Positions 1 to 7,855 are shown, numbered from the stretch's first letter. The stretch is 54,239 bases of DNA from a bacterium (GCA_030603245.1 JAUVYE010000004.1:1-54239); one strand, 5' to 3'. The notes: generated from the letters alone by a model not told the origin. Numbers and translations: made by a program.

Positions 1-88
1 TTCCTTTTTTTGTACACGATTTTTGGAGCTTATATCGTCCTCCTTCTCTTATCCACTCCCAGATTGAAGTGATTGTCTCGAACTTCAT
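1..88 (-). CDS. Hypothetical protein, 5' part only (MKFETITSIWEWIREGG...), runs off the window
   Basis: ATG at 88-86, frame open to the window edge, downstream of TTGACA(132-127)-17nt-TATAAA(109-104). Confidence 0.45.
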   Translation of the reverse strand, partial: MKFETITSIWEWIREGGRYKLQKSCTKKG

Positions 89-103
89 TTTTAGTCTATT
101 TGC

Positions 104-132
104 TTTATATCTCCAAACTATAAATTTGTCAA
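104..132 (-). promoter_or_regulatory. sigma70-type promoter of the cassette left of site R1
   Basis: TTGACA-17 nt-TATAAA on the minus strand. Confidence 0.6.
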
Positions 133-140
133 TATTAAAA

Positions 141-159
141 CTCGAGAAAAACTCTTGGG
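141..159 (-). terminator. Degenerate copy of the conserved CCCGAGA-N5-TCTCGGG hairpin
   Basis: ctcgagaaaaactcttggg, followed by the same caaaaatacga spacer as the copy at 1981. Confidence 0.55.
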
Positions 160-170
160 CAAAAATACGA

Positions 171-204
171 GCTCCTCTGGTGCAACGTTGTTAGAACCTG
201 TTTT
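171..204 (+). repeat. att-like site R1
   Basis: gctcctctggtgcaacgttgttagaacctgtttt. Confidence 0.85.
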
Positions 205-343
205 ATATTGAATTAAATAAAAAAAGTGCCAAAGATGGGTATGGCACCTCTTTTGTTTTAATGTGGTTCAATTAATGTATTAATCCGAAACCTTGACAAA
301 TCGAGAAAAAATGATTAAAACAACATTAAAGAGGTGAGAATAG

Positions 344-724
344 TTGGAAAATGAAAAAACGAACCAGAACCGAACGACCATTATAACAATCCTCGTAATT
401 GTGGTCATTGTGGCTCTGGGAGCGTGGAGATATTCTGGCTGGTTCAAGGTTCACGAAGAACAAGTAGTTATCAAAGAAGCGATTAGGAAAACAGCTGGCG
501 GAGAAACCCGAGAGGTTGAATATTTCCTCTATACCAATAAAGGCTACTTCAAGGTTGGCGGCCCAGTAGATGCAGAAGGAATTCCCTATGTCTGGCAACT
601 TGCTAAAGAAAATGAAAGGAAGCTAGTGCTAATCAGATATTATGGAGGCGGCGTATGGCGTATAGATGCCTGGGGATACTATCCAGTCGCCTATGAAATA
701 CATTCTGTACCAGAAACATCCTAG
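344..724 (+). CDS. Membrane-anchored hypothetical protein (paralog of 750-1088)
   Basis: GAGGTG RBS before TTG, N-terminal TM helix, TTGACA at 293-298; shares T[ND]KGYF..GG/RG..D..GI..Y[YF]G..YP motifs with the next ORF. Confidence 0.75.
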   Translation: MENEKTNQNRTTIITILVIVVIVALGAWRYSGWFKVHEEQVVIKEAIRKTAGGETREVEYFLYTNKGYFKVGGPVDAEGIPYVWQLAKENERKLVLIRYYGGGVWRIDAWGYYPVAYEIHSVPETS

Positions 725-749
725 AATAAAGATCCGAGTGGTGTAAGAC

Positions 750-1088
750 TTGAATCGACGATTTAAAGCAACGATAATCCTCTTAACGCTCTTTGTTATC
801 TTCGGAGCATTGTTCTTCCTTCCTAAAACAGAAAAGGTTGTAGTTCTTGGAAAAATACAAAAAAAGAGCTGGTTCTCCCTTCCTGTTATAGCAGAAAACA
901 CGCTAACTCTCATTATATCAACTGACAAGGGTTATTTCTATGTTAGAGGAAAATTTGATTCAGATGGCATAAGACATATCTTCAAAAAGCTAGAAATCGG
1001 GAAAACTTACGAAATATCGTACTTTGGCCCCAGATGTAATGCTATCTATTTATACCCATTTATCTCTTCTTTTAAAAAAATTACATAA
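750..1088 (+). CDS. Membrane-anchored hypothetical protein (paralog of 344-724)
   Basis: N-terminal TM helix; TDKGYFYVRG, DSDGI, SYFG, LYP motifs shared with the upstream ORF. Confidence 0.7.
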   Translation: MNRRFKATIILLTLFVIFGALFFLPKTEKVVVLGKIQKKSWFSLPVIAENTLTLIISTDKGYFYVRGKFDSDGIRHIFKKLEIGKTYEISYFGPRCNAIYLYPFISSFKKIT

Positions 1089-1215
1089 ACCCTAACAATC
1101 TTCAGAAAATCTCTAGGAAGAAAAAGCTCCACACAAACAAAAGCTATGAATAATATTTTCATAGCCCTTTTTTTTAGCTTTTTTATCTAAAAAACAATCT
1201 AATTTTACAAAAAAA

Positions 1216-1234
1216 CCCGAGAAAAACTCTCGGG
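1216..1234 (-). terminator. Conserved hairpin CCCGAGA-AAAAC-TCTCGGG
   Basis: 7-bp perfect stem followed by a T-run on the minus strand. Confidence 0.7.
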
Positions 1235-1244
1235 CAAAATAGGT

Positions 1245-1278
1245 GCTCCGGGGGCTGGACGACATTAGAACCTGTTTT
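1245..1278 (+). repeat. att-like site R2
   Basis: gctccgggggctggacgacattagaacctgtttt. Confidence 0.85.
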
Positions 1279-1300
1279 ATGAGTCTTTAAAAACAGTTCA

Positions 1301-1561
1301 TTAGCACATAGATACAAACGAGGCGGCTAATAATCCCATAATTATTCCTAAAATTGCAAACCATTTCCCTTTTTGCTTTTTTGTTCTCATCCAAATTAAA
1401 GCTATTATTCCCATAAAAACAGCTCCTAGTCCAGCTATACTATTAACCTCAGAACCACATTCTTTGGCAGTAAATACATATACTAAAGCAAAAATTGCGA
1501 TTAGAAAACTAAAAATTGCTAAACCATTTGTCTCTTTCATGAATGTTTTAATTTTTTCCAT
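1301..1561 (-). CDS. Small membrane protein, DUF4190-like
   Basis: TNGLAIFSF...GIIAL...QKGKWFAILGIIMG pattern typical of DUF4190. Confidence 0.75.
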   Translation of the reverse strand: MEKIKTFMKETNGLAIFSFLIAIFALVYVFTAKECGSEVNSIAGLGAVFMGIIALIWMRTKKQKGKWFAILGIIMGLLAASFVSMC

Positions 1562-1610
1562 ATTATCTTATTTTACCAAAAAAACTAGCTAAGTGACAAG
1601 ACAAAAATTT

Positions 1611-1644
1611 GCTCCCCCTATTGGACGCGTTCAGAACTATTGAT
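1611..1644 (+). repeat. att-like site R3
   Basis: gctccccctattggacgcgttcagaactattgat; first 27 nt identical to R4. Confidence 0.8.
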
Positions 1645-1759
1645 TGGAGAAAAATTAAAGAAAAGCTTAGAAAATTAGAGCCTATTTTATTGAAGATTTA
1701 AATAAAAAAGGGGCTATCCTTGTTTTTAGATAAACCCGTAGGGACTTTTGAGTAGTAGT

Positions 1760-1924
1760 TCAGCTCTTCATGGAATTACATTTCAGACAATGCACACCCA
1801 TTGAAGTATGCTGACACTCTTCCTCTCTGTATTTTTGAGTAGCATGACATTCTATGTCTATCTTTCCTCTTACCTGCACTGGTAGACCGTTAATCAAGAG
1901 TTGCTGAAGTGGTGCCAATTTCAT
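1760..1924 (-). CDS. Small Cys/His-rich hypothetical protein (MKLAPLQ...HCLKCNSMKS)
   Basis: AAAGGAG RBS before ATG at 1924; TTGACA at 1966-1961; the longer ORF-track start overlaps the hairpin and is unlikely. Confidence 0.55.
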   Translation of the reverse strand: MKLAPLQQLLINGLPVQVRGKIDIECHATQKYREEECQHTSMGVHCLKCNSMKS

Positions 1925-1980
1925 TTCTCCTTTTTTGAAGATTATCAAATTCAAACAAATTGTCAATAACCAAGCAAAAA

Positions 1981-1999
1981 CCCGAGATAAACTCTCGGG
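1981..1999 (-). terminator. Conserved hairpin CCCGAGA-TAAAC-TCTCGGG
   Basis: 7-bp perfect stem plus T-run on the minus strand. Confidence 0.7.
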
Positions 2000-2010
2000 C
2001 AAAAATACGA

Positions 2011-2044
2011 GCTCCCCCTATTGGACGCGTTCAGAACCGTGGAT
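2011..2044 (+). repeat. att-like site R4
   Basis: gctccccctattggacgcgttcagaaccgtggat. Confidence 0.8.
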
Positions 2045-2212
2045 TGGAGGAAAATAAGGGAAGAATTGGAGATTTTCAGGATTAGAATGCCTGTGGTTAA
2101 ACGATGTTAGAGCCTGTTTTATAAGGAATTTGGCTTAAGATGCCGTTTTGAGTGTAGGGAAATTAAAAAAAAGCGGTCTGAGACTAGCTCATACCGTCCT
2201 TGATTCGTGAAT

Positions 2213-2491
2213 TTATTTCTCTTCTAGCCTAGTGACCCTTTCTTTTAATCTCTCGATCTCCCAATCTCGCTTTTCTTGCCTAGCTTGAGAGATAATAATT
2301 CCTAGTTTACCGAGTTCAAGCCTATTCTTGCACTTCCAACAATCCCTCAAATGATCTGTTGCTTCTCTTATTTCTCCATCTTTTGGATTAAAGATTTTCT
2401 CCCAAGTTTCTTCACTGATCGGAGCATTCAACAGGCTCTTAATTTCTTCTATTCTTTGATTAGTCAGGGTTCTAGCTTTTTTACAATCCAT
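2213..2491 (-). CDS. Small zinc-finger protein (zf-HC2/anti-sigma-like C...HxxxCxxC)
   Basis: AGGAG RBS before ATG at 2491; MDCKK...DHLRDCWKCK motif. Confidence 0.6.
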   Translation of the reverse strand: MDCKKARTLTNQRIEEIKSLLNAPISEETWEKIFNPKDGEIREATDHLRDCWKCKNRLELGKLGIIISQARQEKRDWEIERLKERVTRLEEK

Positions 2492-2564
2492 TATTCTTTC
2501 TCCTAAGGAACTGTCTTCTTTAAAATTCACAAAAAAAATCAAGTCCTGTAATGGCTTGGAGTTT

Positions 2565-2598
2565 GCTCCGGGGATGGTACAATATTAGAACTTGGTTT
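2565..2598 (+). repeat. att-like site R5 (divergent)
   Basis: gctccggggatggtacaatattagaacttggttt; GCTCC and AGAAC spacing conserved. Confidence 0.75.
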
Positions 2599-2674
2599 TG
2601 GGAAAATTTACCAGCGATTGAATCTAAACTCATTTTCCAGAAACACAAAATAGTATCAATCTAACCTTACTAAA

Positions 2675-3334
2675 TTATATATTAAAAGTACTAAGTAGCC
2701 AGGTAGTAAGCTTTGCTACATACGGTGCAATTGTCGCAATATTTGCCAACATTCCTAGATTTGCCTTTGCTTTTGCAAGAATACTAGTATCTGGTTCTTT
2801 TTTTGCGAGTTGGCTTTTTATAGTTTCTAAATCTCCTTGAATTGAAATTTTTTCTCCATCACTTAACTCTCCAAGCGCATTTACGCGACGACGCAAATCT
2901 TCAGCAAGCTTATGACCTTCTGAAAAAGCAATATTGGAAATACTCGTAACATTATTATTACTTCCAATAACTATAAAATTTCCGCTACCTGAAATGTCGC
3001 CAATTCCTGCAAAAACGTTAGAACGATCAAACTTTGATCCATGCTCAAAATAACCTAATCCGTCCCGAGAAAGTCTGTATTTATAAGTTGGTTTAGCACC
3101 TCCAAATTTCTTCTTTGCAAAATAGTTTTCAACAGGAATTTCTTCAACAAGTTTATTTTGCACTAAAAAAGTTACATTTGCTGCTACTTGATTTTCTTTT
3201 ATTTCCGATAAATGCTCTTTAACTAAACGAGCAAGATTGCGTACGCCAACCATTTGAGATGTACGACTTCTTCCACCCTGATGTAGCTGGTATAAGCTCT
3301 CTAGAATTTTCTCTCTTATTAAATCTTCTTCCAT
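2675..3334 (-). CDS. Hypothetical protein with winged-helix-like N-terminus and helical C-terminus
   Basis: 219-aa ORF; REKILESLY...FLVQNKLVE...YRLSRDGL resembles a wHTH. Confidence 0.7.
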   Translation of the reverse strand: MEEDLIREKILESLYQLHQGGRSRTSQMVGVRNLARLVKEHLSEIKENQVAANVTFLVQNKLVEEIPVENYFAKKKFGGAKPTYKYRLSRDGLGYFEHGSKFDRSNVFAGIGDISGSGNFIVIGSNNNVTSISNIAFSEGHKLAEDLRRRVNALGELSDGEKISIQGDLETIKSQLAKKEPDTSILAKAKANLGMLANIATIAPYVAKLTTWLLSTFNI

Positions 3335-3576
3335 ATTTTATTAAATTTATTAATTTTCTTAACAATATCATTTGTCGCCTTAAATTTATCATTTCTAATT
3401 TAAAAATCAAACCAACTTTCTTTTATCTTTTGTAGAAAAACTGTGGTTAAAATAAAAATCATAGGTAAAATCAGATCCGTCCAGTCAAAAAGAAAATCTG
3501 CTGTTCCCAAAGTCTAGGAAAAAAGGATTTCTAAATTAGAAATTTCAAAAATACTAGTAATGTCAACAAGTATATT

Positions 3577-3837
3577 CTACTTTCCTTTGTGTTGGCTTTT
3601 GGCTCCTTTTTCACGGTTTTCTTCCCAGTGCAGTGGCTGAAGGTTTCTTATATTGTCGGTTCCACCCTTGTCTTTGGGGTTTTTATGGTCAATTTCCCAT
3701 CCATATTTTCCTTCAGTCCCATATGAAGCTTTCCTGATCTTATTGCCATACGTATCTTTGCCCCATCCTTCTGGATTTTTCCCGCGAATAGGTTTTGCCT
3801 TATCCCACACTTTTTCTATTGTTTTTTTGGCAGGCAT
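3577..3837 (-). CDS. HNH endonuclease, small stand-alone type
   Basis: WEIDHKNP..KGGTDNIRNLQPLHWEENREK HNH motif. Confidence 0.9.
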   Translation of the reverse strand: MPAKKTIEKVWDKAKPIRGKNPEGWGKDTYGNKIRKASYGTEGKYGWEIDHKNPKDKGGTDNIRNLQPLHWEENREKGAKSQHKGK

Positions 3838-4007
3838 AGTAATTGAAAATTAATAAGAATTAGCGACCTTTAAAATAAAAACCGGGCCATCCCCGATTTG
3901 TCTTTTTGCTTAAATCGGAGGTGATAAAAGGTTAATGAACAGTAAAAATTATGTTTAAATTAACCTCCGATGGTGAAATATCTATTAAATTTTACCTTAT
4001 TGTAAGT

Positions 4008-4036
4008 AGTATAACATATTTTTACAAAATTTGCAA
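4008..4036 (-). promoter_or_regulatory. sigma70-type promoter upstream of the HNH gene
   Basis: TTGCAA(4036-4031)-17 nt-TATACT(4013-4008). Confidence 0.55.
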
Positions 4037-4103
4037 GTAAAAATTCGAACAAAAGCTCGGACTTATACAATTACATACAAATATATGCAATTTTATACAA
4101 TTA

Positions 4104-4137
4104 GCTCCCCTGATGCAACGTTGTTAGAACCTGTTTT
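4104..4137 (+). repeat. att-like site R6
   Basis: gctcccctgatgcaacgttgttagaacctgtttt; right arm near-identical to R1. Confidence 0.85.
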
Positions 4138-4192
4138 GTATTGAGTTAAATAAAAAAACCATCCAGTCGATGATTAAAAAAATGGGTGGGTA

Positions 4193-4534
4193 TTAGTTTT
4201 TTCGAGGCACTAGCACTTTATCGATCGATGACAGTCTAAGTCCATTTTCTTTGCAGAACGCTTGGAACTCCTGTTGTGTTTCAAAACACATCTCAACAAT
4301 ACTAGCATTAGTTAGTGTTGTTATATCCCCTAGATCATGATATTTTACGATCGTTACGTAGGCAATCTTACGACCACTTTTATAGTTTAAGACATGAGCA
4401 CGTGTCACAATCTTTGTGTCTATATAATTTTCCAATACCCACCCTGGAGTTGAGGTAGAATAAACCGTTATTCCTTCGATTGTGTCAAAACACCTGCTCC
4501 AAAGTTTATTTAAAAGAGCGATTATCTGCCTCAT
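4193..4534 (-). CDS. Hypothetical protein
   Basis: Fills the R6-R7 cassette; promoter TCGACA(4576-4571)-17-TATAAT(4553-4548) favours ATG 4534 over TTG 4543. Confidence 0.6.
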   Translation of the reverse strand: MRQIIALLNKLWSRCFDTIEGITVYSTSTPGWVLENYIDTKIVTRAHVLNYKSGRKIAYVTIVKYHDLGDITTLTNASIVEMCFETQQEFQAFCKENGLRLSSIDKVLVPRKN

Positions 4535-4582
4535 TTTTATCAACTAAATTATAACAAACAGAATATTATTTGTCGATAACTT

Positions 4583-4616
4583 GCTCCCCTGGCGGGACGA
4601 TGTTAGAACCTGTTTT
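4583..4616 (+). repeat. att-like site R7
   Basis: gctcccctggcgggacgatgttagaacctgtttt. Confidence 0.85.
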
Positions 4617-4827
4617 ATATTCAATTAAATCAAAAAACCGCCTATTAAGCGATTTTTTAATTCTCTTAATTTCTCCCCTTTTTCCAACTAATAATAGTAT
4701 GATTATTAGCTCGAAAAAAATTAGGGGAGAAGTAAGTTATTGGCTTAGTGAAAAAAGGGTGAATTTAAGGTACGATTGATTTTGTGCTCACAAAAATCTG
4801 CAAGAGTAATAAAGCCTATAATTCATT

Positions 4828-5322
4828 TCATTTGAAGAGATCAAGCACATTAGTCTTCACTGCGTCTTCAGCTGCTTTAGCTATCTCTGCCAGTGTCCCC
4901 GTCGACTTTAATGCTTCGGCCGTGATCACAAATATCATTGTTGCAGGATCGCCATCACTAACCCACACAATACCTCTATCTGTGAGCTCGTCATCCACGT
5001 CGCGGAAACTAATGTTTATTGTTTGCACTGGTACTTCTTCGCCTCTGGGGTTACACGACACCCCGATGTCATCGCCTCTGACTAGATCGATCTGTTCACC
5101 TGAACTGATCAACCTCACAATTTCTTTTCCAGGCTCGACGCCTCTTAAAACTTTCGCCTCAAGAGAAATCGGAAGTTTCGCTGTCAACCTAGCTAGCTCA
5201 AATTCGAATGTGGGTTTTTCAGCAGACAGAAGAGCACTCTCCAAGTCTTTTGTTTCAACGTTCTTCTGTGGATTTTCTGAAGCATCCTTTTTAGCCCATT
5301 GAATCCAAATATTATATTCTAT
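4828..5322 (-). CDS. Hypothetical protein; the frame stays open to an ATA codon at 5322 behind a strong SD
   Basis: AGGAGGAGG upstream of ATA; promoter TTGACT(5370-5365)-17-TAGTTT; the ORF track starts at TTG 5244. Confidence 0.55.
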   Translation of the reverse strand: MEYNIWIQWAKKDASENPQKNVETKDLESALLSAEKPTFEFELARLTAKLPISLEAKVLRGVEPGKEIVRLISSGEQIDLVRGDDIGVSCNPRGEEVPVQTINISFRDVDDELTDRGIVWVSDGDPATMIFVITAEALKSTGTLAEIAKAAEDAVKTNVLDLFK

Positions 5323-5378
5323 GGTTTTTCCCTCCTCCTAAAAACTACCAAATTGGCATGACCAAGTCAATACTAAAA

Positions 5379-5397
5379 CCCGAGATAAACTCTCGGG
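5379..5397 (-). terminator. Conserved hairpin CCCGAGA-TAAAC-TCTCGGG
   Basis: Identical to the copy at 1981. Confidence 0.7.
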
Positions 5398-5447
5398 CAA
5401 TATATCCACAACTTAACTCCCTATTTTAATTTAATTTCCACACATTA

Positions 5448-5481
5448 GCTCCGGGGGCTGGACGATGTTAGAACCTGTTTT
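5448..5481 (+). repeat. att-like site R8
   Basis: gctccgggggctggacgatgttagaacctgtttt; near-identical to R2. Confidence 0.85.
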
Positions 5482-5539
5482 GCCTTATAAAAAACAAAAC
5501 CGCCCCTTTAAAGAGACGGTTTTGCAATAATTAGTTCTA

Positions 5540-6100
5540 TTATTTTTCGTGTCCTTTGCTTTGAATCGGCATACCAATATGAGATTGAGCAGCTTCTTGT
5601 TTGTCTTCCTGTGAACTGACATATTGTCCGTGATTTCCTGTGAATTGCGTTGACTCTCTTGTAGCTGTACCTACAGTGGTCGTCCATGTACCCCCACGGG
5701 CTCCAAAACAATTATCTGTCCAAGTGCCACTAATTTTACCATCAACATCAATTTCTCCAACTAGAGTAAACGAGCAAGAAAGTAAATCATAATCAGCAGT
5801 CATATTAAAATCACTACCATCGACTAAACCATTGGTTACAGTCCATGGATACTGATAAGGTTCGATTGCTGAAAAGGCTCCACCACTACCTTCAAGCGTA
5901 CCATCTTCAGCTTGTACCAAATTCATGTCATGAAGGTTGGTACCTTCCATATAATGATAATCAAAAACCCAAACTCCGTTAACATCCCATGGTCCGTATT
6001 CTACTGGTCCTGGAACTCTGTCAACTTTTGCTCCTGCGATATTTACTAGAGCAAATAAAGACAGGGTTAATATAATGCTTCCAAAAATTATTTTTTTCAT
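5540..6100 (-). CDS. Secreted hypothetical protein (signal peptide, beta-rich)
   Basis: MKKIIFGSIILTLSLFALVNIAGA signal peptide; promoter TTGACT(6178-6173)-17-TAGTCT. Confidence 0.8.
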   Translation of the reverse strand: MKKIIFGSIILTLSLFALVNIAGAKVDRVPGPVEYGPWDVNGVWVFDYHYMEGTNLHDMNLVQAEDGTLEGSGGAFSAIEPYQYPWTVTNGLVDGSDFNMTADYDLLSCSFTLVGEIDVDGKISGTWTDNCFGARGGTWTTTVGTATRESTQFTGNHGQYVSSQEDKQEAAQSHIGMPIQSKGHEK

Positions 6101-6179
6101 AATTTTCTAATTTAATTTTTATTTTTCGACTTTGGCTTTTCTTACTTTTAGACTAAAACTCATTTATTGAAAAGTCAAA

Positions 6180-6198
6180 CCCGAGAAAAACTCTCGGG
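6180..6198 (-). terminator. Conserved hairpin CCCGAGA-AAAAC-TCTCGGG
   Basis: Identical to the copy at 1216. Confidence 0.65.
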
Positions 6199-6208
6199 CT
6201 TTTAAAAA

Positions 6209-6242
6209 ACTCCCCTGGCGGGACGATGTTAGAACCTGTTTC
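6209..6242 (+). repeat. att-like site R9
   Basis: actcccctggcgggacgatgttagaacctgtttc; right arm identical to R7 over ~32 nt. Confidence 0.85.
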
Positions 6243-6376
6243 ATTAAAACAAAATGGTCTTTTGATATACTGATTTTAGCTAATCCTTAGTTTACCCTAC
6301 CCTTCAACTCACTATTTATTTAAAAAATTGAAAAACAAGAAAAAAATGGTAAAATAATTTAATTATTTCTAAATTC

Positions 6377-6601
6377 ATGAAAGAACGAGAAGAAAAAATT
6401 ATTCGTACTATTTATCACGAAGAGACTAATCGTTTCTTCAAATCAATTGGGTTGTCTGAAAAATTAGAGAAGGGTGAACTCCAGTGCAATGTCTGTGGTG
6501 AAATAATAACAGTTACCAACTTTAGAGCAGTCACCCGTAAGGAGGGTGATTTGCTTTTCTGTTGTGATAAAGAATTATGTATGCAGAAATTTAGAACATG
6601 A
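6377..6601 (+). CDS. Small zinc-binding protein (CxxC...CCxxxxC)
   Basis: CNVCGE...FCCDKELC; ATGA overlap with the next gene. Confidence 0.75.
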   Translation: MKEREEKIIRTIYHEETNRFFKSIGLSEKLEKGELQCNVCGEIITVTNFRAVTRKEGDLLFCCDKELCMQKFRT

Positions 6602-7734
6602 ACACGAATTGGTTAAAATACATATTTGAATATGGACCATTAGCTTTAGCTATCCCTATATTCGAGTATTTTGGAACATCAGGTTTGATTTTCTTTATAC
6701 TTATAATAGTTATAATTCGTTTATTTGCGATAATACTAGATAAAGATCTTAATGAACGTTGGCGAGCGCGGTTCTACAAAATAATATATAAAATAAACGG
6801 AAGTAGTAATGCAGAGAAAAAATATATAGAAAATAATGCCTGTAGTCGTCTCAATCTTGCACGTCGCAAAATGCCATTCGAGAAAGAATATCTACCTAAG
6901 GCGATAAGAATAGAATGGTTTGGTGATAAAATAGGAAAAACTGCACAAATCAAAGAAAATGAAATTCTCATCCGTCTTGATCCAGCGGAAAGACAAGAAA
7001 AAAATATAGTTTTACTCGCCGATGCTTTAGTTAAAGAAACCTCTCTTATTGGGATTAGACATATTTTAAATGAAGCCTCAGAGGCTTCAATGGATTTAAA
7101 TCTCGTAAAAAGTCTACTTAAGGAAACTGGTGATAGAAAAATTTTGGATTGGTTCTTACGTAACGAATATCAAACAGCTTTAGGAAAAATAAATGGAATC
7201 GGGAAGTGGAACGAAGCGATTGTAGAAATTGATGAAAGGGGTCTATTTACCAGACTATTGCTTGTAGAACTAGAGTGGTTCTCTAAAAGAATTTCAGGCA
7301 GATCTTCTCCAGAATTTTTCAAAGAGGTTATAGGCTTGGTTAAATTCCTCTATAAAATAGCAACTAAGGTTTATAAACAAGATGTACCCTTAGAATATAC
7401 TTCACGAAATATAAAAATCGGCGTCATTCTTGTGGGAAAAACGAGTAAAATTCTTCGTAGAGGAATTGAACCTTTTTTGAAAGCGTTCATGTATCAAATA
7501 CAAAAACAGTTTACTTCGATATATGTTATTGAATTTGATAAAGAATTACTTGGTGTTTCAGACCCAAAAGCACATGAATACTTTATGAATTTAACGAAAA
7601 GCCTAACCAAGGAAATAGAGAAACGATTTGAAATTAAAAAGGACTTCGATCTTTCCTATGACTGCATTGACTCTATGGGTAGAAAAAGGCATGCAAAAAT
7701 TTGCCATTATATTCCTCACTATGCATTTTTTTAA
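6598..7734 (+). CDS. Hypothetical protein with N-terminal TM segment and large soluble domain
   Basis: 378-aa ORF translationally coupled to the upstream Zn protein. Confidence 0.8.
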   Translation: MNTNWLKYIFEYGPLALAIPIFEYFGTSGLIFFILIIVIIRLFAIILDKDLNERWRARFYKIIYKINGSSNAEKKYIENNACSRLNLARRKMPFEKEYLPKAIRIEWFGDKIGKTAQIKENEILIRLDPAERQEKNIVLLADALVKETSLIGIRHILNEASEASMDLNLVKSLLKETGDRKILDWFLRNEYQTALGKINGIGKWNEAIVEIDERGLFTRLLLVELEWFSKRISGRSSPEFFKEVIGLVKFLYKIATKVYKQDVPLEYTSRNIKIGVILVGKTSKILRRGIEPFLKAFMYQIQKQFTSIYVIEFDKELLGVSDPKAHEYFMNLTKSLTKEIEKRFEIKKDFDLSYDCIDSMGRKRHAKICHYIPHYAFF

Positions 7735-7773
7735 TAAAACAGCCTAGCGATGGGCTTTTAACTAATTCAAAAC

Positions 7774-7798
7774 AAAACAGGGTTTTTGACCCTGTTTT
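7774..7798. terminator. Rho-independent terminator-like hairpin
   Basis: aaaacaggg-tttttga-ccctgtttt. Confidence 0.65.
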
Positions 7799-7807
7799 CG
7801 CTTCTGA

Positions 7808-7830
7808 GCTCCGGCAATCGGACTCGAACC
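7808..7830 (-). other. tRNA 3'-end fragment (Asn/Gln type, U1-A72 with G73); att-like site R10 closing the array
   Basis: Minus strand GGTTCGAGTCCGATTGCCGGAGC = T-loop, 3' T-stem, acceptor strand and discriminator; the 5' part of the tRNA is absent. Confidence 0.65.
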
Positions 7831-7855
7831 TCCACCTAATAAGCACTTGATATGT

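What the first reader, a model, noticed from the sequence alone, without database searches (positions are those of the whole stretch)
172..6290. Every site encodes an alternative protein C-terminus in one conserved frame
Seen, reading the + strand from CTC: R1 LLWCNVVRTCFILN*, R2 LRGLDDIRTCFMSL*, R3 LPLLDAFRTIDWRKIKEKLRKLEPILLKI*, R4 LPLLDAFRTVDWRKIREELEIFRIRMPVVKRC*, R5 LRGWYNIRTWFWENLPAIESKLIFQKHKIVSI*, R6 LP*CNVVRTCFVLS*, R7 LPWRDDVRTCFIFN*, R8 LRGLDDVRTCFAL*, R9 LPWRDDVRTCFIKTKWSFDILILANP*. There are no indels in the core, and variation looks codon-like (V/I/F; ACC/ACT; R3 vs R4 I/V and K/R). None has its own start. Inference: the crossover lies inside the 3' end of an upstream gene and whichever cassette is first supplies its C-terminus, as in a shufflon. 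From recollection, not verified here, such tails occur on CPR large serine recombinases. The recombinase may therefore rewrite its own tail, possibly tuning activity, stability or directionality.
Basis: partly seen in the sequence, partly recalled or inferred. Interest (0 to 1): 0.85.

Follow-up and report, generated by a model that had tools for sequence, protein, structure and literature searches.

The report
Orphan serine-integrase sites bounding gene cassettes
The repeats are attachment-site relics of mobile elements that insert at tRNA genes and whose recombinase gene, where present in other genomes, ends inside the site so that its tail changes on insertion; in this window no such gene is attached and the sites only bound small cargo cassettes.

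Summary
The repeat family is real: 10 direct copies lie in window 170-6244 and about 15 more elsewhere in the genome. The same core occurs in 32 of 81 related genomes. No site is fused to a gene: not in this genome, and not in any of 111 sites from 12 genomes. Third codon positions of the core are as conserved as the others, and the assembly holds no serine recombinase.

Each site is the last few bases of a tRNA 3' end (GCTCC) joined to an attP-type half-site (P'). In P' the ...GAACC motif sits 5 bp further out than in the tRNA T-loop, the known attP/attB difference of serine integrases. Integrated copies end in tRNA antisense (...WLPG*, ...WLRGQDSNL). Tandem or free copies end in site-encoded tails (...WLPLLDAFRTF..., ...WLRGWDDVRT...). 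One of these is the window's R3/R4 sequence with one mismatch.

The window therefore holds an orphan array of recombinase-free cassettes beside a decayed tRNA-Asn-like gene. The tails here are not attached to any gene. Verdict: interpretation partly supported; a new variant of a known kind.

The parts
170..207 (+). Site R1, short type: GCTCC + P' half-site (…ACGTTGTTAGAACCTGTTT)
1244..1282 (+). Site R2, short type
1610..1664 (+). Site R3, long type (…GGACGCGTTCAGAAC + conserved tail region); likeness of foreign contigs ends near 1612 and 1664
1675..1690 (+). Degenerate second half-site (TTAGAGCCTATTTTAT) 65 nt after R3
   Evidence: family D4
2010..2075 (+). Site R4, long type; one mismatch from the sequence that ends a recombinase gene in metagenome locus L243
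2086..2124 (+).
   Evidence: (E 0.0034)
2564..2609 (+). Site R5, long type (…GGTACAATATTAGAACTTGGTTTTGGGA…)
4103..4140 (+). Site R6, short type, with in-frame TGA; it stands where the tRNA-Asp 3' end stands on contig C4
4582..4619 (+). Site R7, short type
5447..5482 (+). Site R8, short type; foreign contigs lose likeness at 5448 and 5480
6208..6244 (+). Site R9, short type; foreign contigs lose likeness at 6209 and 6241
7806..7850 (-). Degenerate tRNA-Asn-like 3' half (+ strand GCTCCGGCAATCGGACTCGAACCTCC…), not called by ARAGORN; terminal attB-type end of the array. One foreign contig joins a hairpin-type flank (…2008) directly to 7806
141..160 (-). Hairpin CCCGAG…CTCGGG with a T-run on the minus strand (terminator-like); further copies at 1216-1235, 1981-2000, 5379-5398 and 6180-6199. 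In G184 a similar hairpin forms the flank beside the far-end site
208..1243 (.). Cassette with two small + strand ORFs (344-724, 750-1088); no Pfam match
1283..1609 (-). Cassette: 86-aa membrane ORF 1301-1561 (DUF4190 match below cut-off). Its promoter-like leader is homologous to the DNA just downstream of tRNA-Asn on C21
2125..2563 (-). Cassette: 109-aa ORF 2213-2542, no Pfam match
2610..4102 (-). Cassette: 219-aa ORF 2675-3334 and 86-aa HNH nuclease ORF 3577-3837. The 4026-4102 leader is 87% identical to the DNA just downstream of tRNA-Asp on C4
4141..4581 (-). Cassette: 116-aa ORF 4193-4543, no Pfam match
4620..5446 (-). Cassette: 138-aa ORF 4828-5244, no Pfam match
5483..6207 (-). Cassette: 186-aa ORF 5540-6100 with a hydrophobic N-terminus (probably secreted, judged by eye), no Pfam match
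6245..7805 (+). Last unit, between R9 and the tRNA-like remnant: ORFs 6377-6601 (74 aa) and 6598-7734 (378 aa). The 378-aa ORF has no Pfam match; the 74-aa ORF was not scanned

Best explanation
The repeats are attachment-site junctions left by a family of integrative elements that use a large serine recombinase (LSR) and target the 3' end of tRNA genes. Anatomy, read on the + strand: each site is GCTCC, the reverse complement of the last bases of a tRNA, contributed by the left partner. This is followed by a ~25-bp attP-type right half-site (P'). The first part of P' imitates the tRNA's acceptor and T-stem. Then come 5 extra bases, then T(A/C)GAACC, the same motif as the tRNA T-loop region. 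The true tRNA is the attB-type half-site (B'), with that motif 5 bp closer in. When the element is integrated next to the tRNA, the tail is tRNA antisense, often just …WLRG* or …WLPG*. When the next thing to the right is another element's P' arm (a tandem, or by inference the excised circle), the tail is P'-encoded (…LPLLDAFRTLDWxKIKEEL…, …LRGWDDVRT…). How arrays form: repeated insertion at the regenerated tRNA pushes older units outward, giving [site][unit][site][unit]…[tRNA]. In this window: 10 such sites bound at least 8 small recombinase-free cassettes next to a decayed tRNA-Asn-like gene. No recombinase is attached, so these tails are not joined to any gene. Shown: the site anatomy; the tRNA linkage; recombinase genes reading across the site in alternative states; the absence of a recombinase here. 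Inferred: the exact crossover (within GCTCC(CC)); that the cassettes were inserted in trans by such a recombinase; any function of the tail.
For: Spread: the same 20-nt core is in 32 of 81 related genomes, with one match to the backwards control pattern in all 81. Within each array all sites point one way. tRNA linkage: arrays lie downstream of tRNA genes on the opposite strand in 9 arrays (Asn x3, Gln x3, His x2, Asp x1). The window's array ends at a tRNA-Asn-like remnant. tRNA likeness: the 15 nt at each site's left resemble real tRNA 3' ends (mean 10.7 of 15 against 7.4 for shuffled). They resemble the neighbouring tRNA type best, ties included, in 37 of 43 sites. Positional equivalence: window 4026-4102 and 1547-1615 are homologous to the DNA that abuts the 3' ends of tRNA-Asp and tRNA-Asn on other contigs. 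Recombinase link: a profile of the long tails found 99 representatives among 1.84 billion proteins. All are 28-179 aa except one 1,407-aa protein hit in 7 short stretches, which I judge spurious. The longest hits are 3' fragments of LSRs. In genomes, 24 of 30 LSR loci have their stop inside an antisense tRNA; 3 run off and 3 are unclear. In 80 metagenome LSR loci, 50 stop in a called antisense tRNA, 7 have such a tail with no tRNA called, 10 run off, 6 have P'-type tails by my rule, and 7 are other. Three of those 7 look P'-type by eye (L190, L173, L170). Whole elements (site, cargo, LSR, tRNA) are seen in G184, G296 and G226, and tandems with an LSR reading into a long-type tail in G085 and G204. 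Alternative states: one LSR subfamily shares …AACTGGCTCCCC and then diverges into tRNA-Asn, P' type A, or the window's R3/R4-type P'. Geometry: the 5-bp outward shift of the …GAACC motif in sites relative to tRNAs matches the published attP/attB difference for serine integrases (passages of PMC3783163). Long tails: pN/pS is lowest in the LSR frame.
Against: No LSR gene or remnant is in this genome or in the five other genomes of its family that were searched. The acting enzyme is therefore absent or unassembled here. Across the 81 relatives, by my hand comparison of the lists, presence of the short-type core does not track presence of this LSR family (about 9 of 31 with sites against 15 of 49 without). 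The short-type tail fused to an LSR rests on few cases: protein P0101 and locus L173. None of the cassettes carries the recombinase's 3' coding sequence before its site. They are thus not simple deletion derivatives, and their movement in trans is inferred, not seen. No excised circle or empty site was observed. The far-end site and the recombinase-end junction of G184 differ between GCTCC and GGAC, so that pair alone does not fix the crossover.
Confidence: 0.8

Rival explanations
1. A recombinase gene lies just left of the window, the first site supplies its C-terminus, and recombination among the sites switches tails as in a shufflon.
For: The window starts only 170 nt before R1 and the assembly breaks at these repeats, so the left end of the array is unseen. 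In loci L190 and L217 a recombinase does head an array.
Against: R1 has a stop 18 codons upstream in frame. No Resolvase or Recombinase-domain gene, and no relative of P0100 or P0101, is in the 98%-complete assembly. All sites are direct repeats. [quoted passage not shown]
Confidence: 0.06
2. The array is an integron-like or Xer-driven system. The genome's single tyrosine recombinase inserts and excises the cassettes at these sites.
For: Small promoter-plus-ORF cassettes are separated by a conserved site. G000 and the single-contig genome G035 each have just one tyrosine recombinase and no Resolvase-domain gene. GTTAGAA resembles the integron core site GTTRRRY (that consensus is recalled).
Against: The recombinase is Xer-like. 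It scores 89 bits on the integron-integrase model against a cut-off of 265, and it lies far from every array. By inspection of the flanks no inverse core site (GTTCTAAC) accompanies the sites; I ran no folding. The sites match serine-integrase geometry and lie in frame at the ends of LSR genes elsewhere.
Confidence: 0.05
3. The sites are decaying partial tRNAs left by ordinary tyrosine-integrase islands (tycheposon-like). The cassettes are the eroded remains of those islands.
For: The arrays are linked to tRNAs and the tails resemble tRNAs. tRNA islands with scattered partial tRNAs are described in passages of preprint 10.1101/2020.12.28.424599.
Against: The sites are not tRNA fragments. All carry the same 5-nt insertion, and a core conserved across tRNA types and across families. 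No tyrosine integrase or remnant of one lies in or beside the arrays I examined. The elements that carry these sites encode serine recombinases.
Confidence: 0.04
4. The repeats are not recombination sites. They are regulatory or RNA elements (terminators, 3' UTR tRNA mimics, a small RNA) repeated between genes.
For: Five sites are followed on the minus strand by a terminator-like hairpin, so minus-strand transcripts would carry the site in their 3' ends.
Against: Rfam gave nothing near any gathering score. Cassette genes lie on both strands, and two sites on contig C21 stand only 146 nt apart with no ORF between them. The sites coincide with element ends and with recombinase 3' ends.
Confidence: 0.02

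Closest known systems
Serine-integrase (large serine recombinase) attP/attB systems such as Listeria A118/LI, Bxb1 and phiC31
   Same: The enzyme has the same three domains: Resolvase, Recombinase and Zn_ribbon_recom. The sites are short. P' and B' carry the same outer motif displaced by 5 bp, as described for the LI integrase (passages of PMC3783163).
   Different: attB is the 3' end of a tRNA gene. [quoted passage not shown] Many genomes hold arrays of recombinase-free units. No recombination assay exists for this family.
Myxophage Mx8 IntP/IntX (attP inside the integrase gene)
   Same: The attachment site lies within the integrase coding sequence, and integration creates a new 3' end of the gene (passage of review PMC6070905; also named in PMC4383910). 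From recollection, Mx8's attB is at a tRNA-Asp locus.
   Different: Mx8 uses a tyrosine integrase. Here the enzyme is a serine recombinase, only the last residues after …W-L are exchanged, and several alternative P' tails exist within one subfamily.
tRNA-linked genomic islands and tycheposons
   Same: Elements insert repeatedly at a tRNA and push older ones outward. Islands carry cargo and att repeats (passages of 10.1101/2020.12.28.424599).
   Different: There, 910 of 937 elements carry tyrosine integrases and the repeats are partial tRNAs. Here the repeats are tRNA-end + P' hybrids of a serine system, units are 0.1-1.6 kb, and the array units carry no integrase.
Integrons
   Same: Arrays of small one- or two-gene cassettes are separated by a conserved recombination site, with no recombinase inside the cassettes.
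   Different: There is no IntI next to the array and no attC-type inverted structure by inspection. Cassette genes lie on both strands, and some have promoter-like leaders of their own. The anchor is a tRNA gene.
Shufflons (Rci, pilV C-terminal switching; recalled)
   Same: The idea that site-specific recombination exchanges the C-terminal coding end of a gene.
   Different: Shufflons invert segments between inverted repeats using a tyrosine recombinase. Here all repeats are direct, and the tail changes only on insertion or excision beside the recombinase gene.

Membership tests
Serine-integrase attachment sites | A large serine recombinase (Resolvase + Recombinase + Zn ribbon) encoded by the element or the genome | tested here: not met
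   G000: 0 hits for PF00239 and PF07508, 0 for P0100/P0101, no tblastn remnant. Met in relatives: 116 of 301 genomes; domains confirmed in G184.
Serine-integrase attachment sites | Short sites whose attP and attB half-sites carry the same outer motif shifted by 5 bp | tested here: met
   tRNA: GGAC|TCGAACC; sites: GGAC|GATGT|TAGAACC. The rule comes from passages of PMC3783163. Sequence comparison only.
Serine-integrase attachment sites | A defined crossover dinucleotide shared by the partners | tested here: inconclusive
   States of one subfamily share …TGGCTCCCC and diverge after it, so exchange lies within GCTCC(CC). The exact dinucleotide is not determined.
Serine-integrase attachment sites | Recombination demonstrated (integration or excision products) | not testable with these tools
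   Only natural alternative junctions were seen: attR-like, tandem and P'-tailed copies. No circle or empty site was observed.
   Not met in the window or in G000 (at most 57 open codons upstream), nor in 111 array sites (median 13, maximum 116). Met elsewhere: P0101 and P0103, G085 and G204, and L203, L208, L217, L237, L240, L243 plus L190, L173, L170 by eye.
Integron | intI gene with attI next to the array | tested here: not met
   The only tyrosine recombinase is Xer-like, on another contig, and scores 89 bits on the integron-integrase model against a cut-off of 265.
Integron | attC sites: imperfect inverted repeats that fold as single strands | not tested
   By inspection of the flanks no inverse core site accompanies the sites. 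No folding was run.
Shufflon | Inverted repeats allowing inversion downstream of a fused gene | tested here: not met
   All sites in each array have one orientation, and no gene is fused to them.
tRNA islands made by tyrosine integrases | The displaced repeat is a true fragment of the target tRNA, with a tyrosine integrase in the element | tested here: not met
   The sites carry a 5-nt insertion, and their tails mostly match the tRNA in only 10-12 of 15 positions. The elements carry serine recombinases.

The most novel reading that the evidence does not exclude
Recombinase-free cassettes carrying only a minimal P|P' site are captured in trans by tRNA-targeting serine integrases. They accumulate beside tRNA genes as a serine-recombinase counterpart of the integron in very small genomes. 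In addition, the recombinase's exchangeable tail reports its state: truncated by tRNA antisense when integrated, and extended by a conserved helix-like P'-encoded tail in the excised or tandem form. That difference would bias integration against excision.
Probability: 0.3. Interest if true: 0.85.

Novelty: new variant of a known kind. Interest (0 to 1): 0.7.

Why it matters
Serine integrases are valued genome-engineering tools, and how their direction is controlled is an active question. This is a natural family whose C-terminus is rewritten by its own reaction. At least four alternative tails follow one crossover, and the long tail shows some sign of selection. That makes testable the idea that the enzyme senses whether it is integrated.

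The family also targets tRNA genes. A 2015 survey said serine integrases were not known to do this.

It leaves integrase-free cassette arrays in genomes of about half a megabase. That bears on how such reduced genomes gain and hold accessory genes, for example the type III restriction-modification cargo in G184 and the HNH and membrane proteins here.

For annotation, it explains why these assemblies break at these loci. It also explains why gene callers emit many 30-60 aa 'proteins' ending in this motif.

Tried and rejected
Readings rejected:
- tRNA or tmRNA fragments. ARAGORN calls none at the sites. The sites are about 7 nt too long for a tRNA 3' half and the T-stem does not pair. The tmRNA 3' end is unrelated.
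- A known RNA family. Rfam in E-value mode gave four hits, all far below gathering scores.
- A recombinase encoded in the arrays. Clustering 311 ORFs from arrays and flanks gave no recombinase family. The 15-member cluster appears held together by N-terminal membrane anchors; other clusters look, by eye, like methyltransferase, glycosyltransferase and radical-SAM proteins.
- Conserved genes at the array ends in G035. The neighbours look like ordinary housekeeping genes, judged by eye.

Searches that found nothing:
- R5-type frame against longer proteins: no candidate.
- P0101 tail region: only itself.
- P0100 in viral contigs: 2 pattern matches, none confirmed.
- P0101 across the order: most alignments stop before the tail.
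- Upstream of 12 further recombinases I asked for ~16 kb each. Two regions were cut by contig ends, so 10 were analysed. Clear far-end sites appeared only in G204, G203 and G141, with possible ones in the three tRNA-Ser loci.

My own errors:
- One search counted stops in a frame one base off; corrected.
- Searches used a longest-ORF shortcut that picked wrong strands or neighbouring genes; redone.
- I first set aside the weak matches lying in long frames as chance. One of them (G085:C3:13950, E 0.4, 352-aa frame) proved to be a real recombinase-fused tail.

Sequencing runs: the four runs held only 6-7% of the sampled words, so they say nothing about habitat or strain. Parts of the window without cover are not evidence of absence. 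Different runs held pieces of different cassettes, but their contigs are short.

Literature: searches listed no paper on serine recombinases at tRNA genes in Patescibacteria/CPR. Passages of PMC12884075 make no statement on the point. This is not proof that it is unpublished. The 'CPR' label rests on genome size and composition only (548 kb, 33% GC); no tool named the organism.

Full report
THE OBSERVATION

Window 170-6244 holds a family of direct repeats at 170, 1244, 1610, 2010, 2564, 4103, 4582, 5447 and 6208. I found a weaker tenth copy at 2086-2124. A degenerate 33-nt pattern matched 6 times and never in 100 shuffles. The nine copies align without gaps.

The window is contig C5 of a 548-kb, 26-contig assembly estimated 98% complete. 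A profile search finds about 15 more copies on C21, C16, C4, C14 and C25, several close to contig ends.

NO PRESENT-DAY GENE IS FUSED TO ANY SITE

R1 has 18.

I put 111 sites into one register, taken from this genome and from arrays in 11 relatives. The upstream frame is open for a median of 13 codons, against 12 at random positions, with a maximum of 116. Nine of the 111 have a stop inside the 11 core codons. Eighteen have a stop directly before CTC.

The conserved block runs from 20 nt before to 12 nt after the first T of TTAGAAC. Within it, third codon positions are as conserved as first and second. That indicates selection on the DNA itself. One caveat applies: the sites were collected with a nucleotide profile.

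The assembly has no Resolvase or Recombinase-domain gene. Its single tyrosine recombinase is Xer-like and lies on another contig.

THE OTHER STRAND GAVE THE CLUE

The 20-nt core GACGATGTTAGAACCTGTTT is present in 32 of 81 genomes of the same order. A backwards control pattern matched once in all 81. It often forms one-directional arrays.

Nine arrays lie just downstream of tRNA genes (Asn, Gln, His, Asp), with the sites on the strand opposite the tRNA.

The left 15 nt of each site resemble real tRNA 3' ends: 10.7 of 15 on average, against 7.4 for shuffled versions. They resemble the neighbouring tRNA type best, ties included, in 37 of 43 sites. Sites within one array are not independent; the independent units are the 9 arrays.

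Two stretches of the window end exactly at R6 and at R3. They are homologous to DNA that abuts the 3' ends of tRNA-Asp and tRNA-Asn on other contigs. A site can therefore stand where a tRNA end stands.

The window's array itself ends at 7806-7850 in a degenerate tRNA-Asn-like 3' half.

Foreign metagenome contigs lose likeness to the window at the two edges of the sites. One of them joins a hairpin-type flank directly to 7806.

THE LONG TAILS LED TO THE GENE

The R3/R4 and R5 tails extend the conservation.

At E < 1e-3, the 91 six-frame matches to the R4 peptide in 301 genomes lie in open frames of only 15-122 aa.

A 22-column profile of these tails was searched against 1.84 billion representative proteins. 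It found 99 hits at E <= 1e-3, all 28-179 aa except one 1,407-aa protein hit in 7 short stretches, which I judge spurious.

Three of the longer hits share sequence upstream of the motif. Searching one of them (P0098) against longer proteins returned five large serine recombinases with Resolvase, Recombinase and Zn_ribbon_recom domains. Their C-termini are telling:
- P0101 ends …HPFWLRGWDDVRTSL…, the short site peptide.
- P0103 ends …LALENDFITIDWATAY…, a long-type variant.
- P0100 ends …HPIWLRGWDSNPRPIG and P0102 ends …GGQDSNLQPSGY…, the antisense reading of a tRNA T-arm.

TESTING THE MODEL ON DNA

This recombinase family occurs in 116 of 301 genomes of the order. It was not found in this genome or in the five other genomes of its family.

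In 24 of 30 fetched loci the recombinase's stop lies inside a tRNA gene on the other strand. Three run off the sequence and three are unclear.

In G184 the whole element is visible: a long-type site, about 8 kb that includes a type III restriction-modification pair, the recombinase, then tRNA-Asn. G296 and G226 are alike.

In G085 and G204 two elements stand in tandem. The upstream recombinase reads in frame into a long-type tail supplied by the next element.

Among 80 metagenome loci:
- 50 recombinases stop in a called antisense tRNA.
- 7 have such a tail without a tRNA call.
- 10 run off the contig.
- 6 carry P'-type tails by my rule.
- 7 are other. Three of these (L190, L173, L170) look P'-type by eye, and L173 has the short type.

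Within one subfamily all copies share …AACTGGCTCCCC. They then continue in one of three ways:
- into tRNA-Asn, giving the tail LPG*;
- into one P' arm, giving LPRQNDFRTF…;
- into CTATTGGACGCTTTCAGAAC, the window's R3/R4 sequence with one mismatch, giving LPLLDAFRTF….

The exchange point therefore lies within GCTCC(CC), the last bases of the tRNA. Everything to its right is the P' half-site.

In L190 and L217 the recombinase's site is followed by further sites, so a recombinase can head an array.

GEOMETRY

In the tRNAs the sequence reads GGAC|TCGAACC. In the sites it reads GGAC|GATGT|TAGAACC. The …GAACC motif is thus 5 bp further from the crossover in the sites.

Passages of Rutherford et al. 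[quoted passage not shown]

If I place the 9-bp motif at that paper's positions, the crossover falls at the CC of GCTCC. This is inference by analogy.

WHAT THE WINDOW HOLDS

Successive insertion at the regenerated tRNA gives [site][unit][site][unit]…[tRNA], with each interior site made of the previous unit's left arm and the next unit's P'.

The window fits this scheme. Ten sites bound units of about 0.1-1.6 kb. Most carry one or two small ORFs without a Pfam match; the exceptions are an HNH nuclease and a weak DUF4190 match. The series ends at a tRNA-like remnant.

tblastn with five recombinases found no remnant at E < 0.1 in 396 kb of array loci or in the whole genome. Clustering of array ORFs found no recombinase family. 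The units are therefore recombinase-free rather than visibly decayed elements.

Whether they were inserted in trans by a passing recombinase, or are very old relics, is not settled. I saw no circles and no empty sites. Genome by genome, the short-type core does not track the recombinase family (my hand comparison).

COMPARISON AND NOVELTY

The enzyme and the site geometry are those of serine integrases.

The overlap of attP with the integrase's own 3' end, changing the protein on integration, has a precedent in the tyrosine integrase of myxophage Mx8 (passage of PMC6070905; PMC4383910).

Stacking of elements at tRNAs resembles tycheposon islands (passages of 10.1101/2020.12.28.424599).

What I did not find in print is a serine-integrase family that combines three things: it targets tRNA genes, it reads across its own site, and it leaves integrase-free cassette arrays. 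[quoted passage not shown] Supplements were closed, and later literature may exist.

VERDICT

The sequence observation is largely right. It is not realised in this window, where the tails belong to no gene. I rate this a new variant of a known kind, interest 0.7.

Noticed in passing
window 3577-3837 (-): An 86-aa stand-alone HNH nuclease ORF (PF01844, 31.4 bits, over the cut-off) is carried as cassette cargo.
   Followed up: partly
window 1-159 and G000 C21:1-159: Two contigs begin with the same 159 nt (97% identical) and then diverge. C5 goes to a hairpin and R1. C21 goes to a GTPase-like ORF and an inositol-monophosphatase-like ORF (identified by eye) before its first site. This is either an assembly fork or two variants of the array's outer boundary.
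   Followed up: partly
window 4026-4102; G000 C4:18730-18807; C21 ~5170-5212: A ~78-nt stretch rich in TATACAAT/TATGCAAT repeats precedes some sites and also abuts the 3' end of tRNA-Asp. It could be a shared promoter or a binding region at the start of cassettes on the minus strand.
   Followed up: no
window 2010-2124; also 1610-1690; C21:6295-6398; C4:17749-17872; L058:9001-9088: Long-type sites are regularly followed 65-91 nt later by a second, short or degenerate site. The pair forms a gene-less mini-unit whose middle is the conserved tail region.
   Followed up: partly
G000 C22:50542-51072 (L027:1444-2403, -): The only tyrosine recombinase of the genome is a 319-aa Xer-like protein. It scores below the XerC, XerD and XerA equivalog cut-offs. 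Single-contig genome G035 likewise has just one.
   Followed up: partly
L137 (G184:C4:14000-27500): The ~9.7-kb recombinase-bearing element at tRNA-Asn carries a type III restriction-modification pair (N6_N4_Mtase + TypeIII_RM_meth; ResIII) as cargo.
   Followed up: yes
L070 (G043:C11) sites at 3430 and 5930: Two sites with identical flanks lie 2.5 kb apart, and two 225-aa ORFs in the same blastp cluster lie between them. A whole cassette appears duplicated in tandem between sites.
   Followed up: no
metagenome loci L168, L175-L177, L184-L189 and others: Many contigs end within about 100 nt after the recombinase's stop. Assemblies evidently break at the tRNA/att repeat, as they do in G000.
   Followed up: no
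G035:C1 arrays at about 30.6-37.1 kb (+) and 311-319 kb (-): The two arrays of this 516-kb single-contig genome point in opposite directions on roughly opposite halves of the contig. A link to replication direction was not examined.
   Followed up: no
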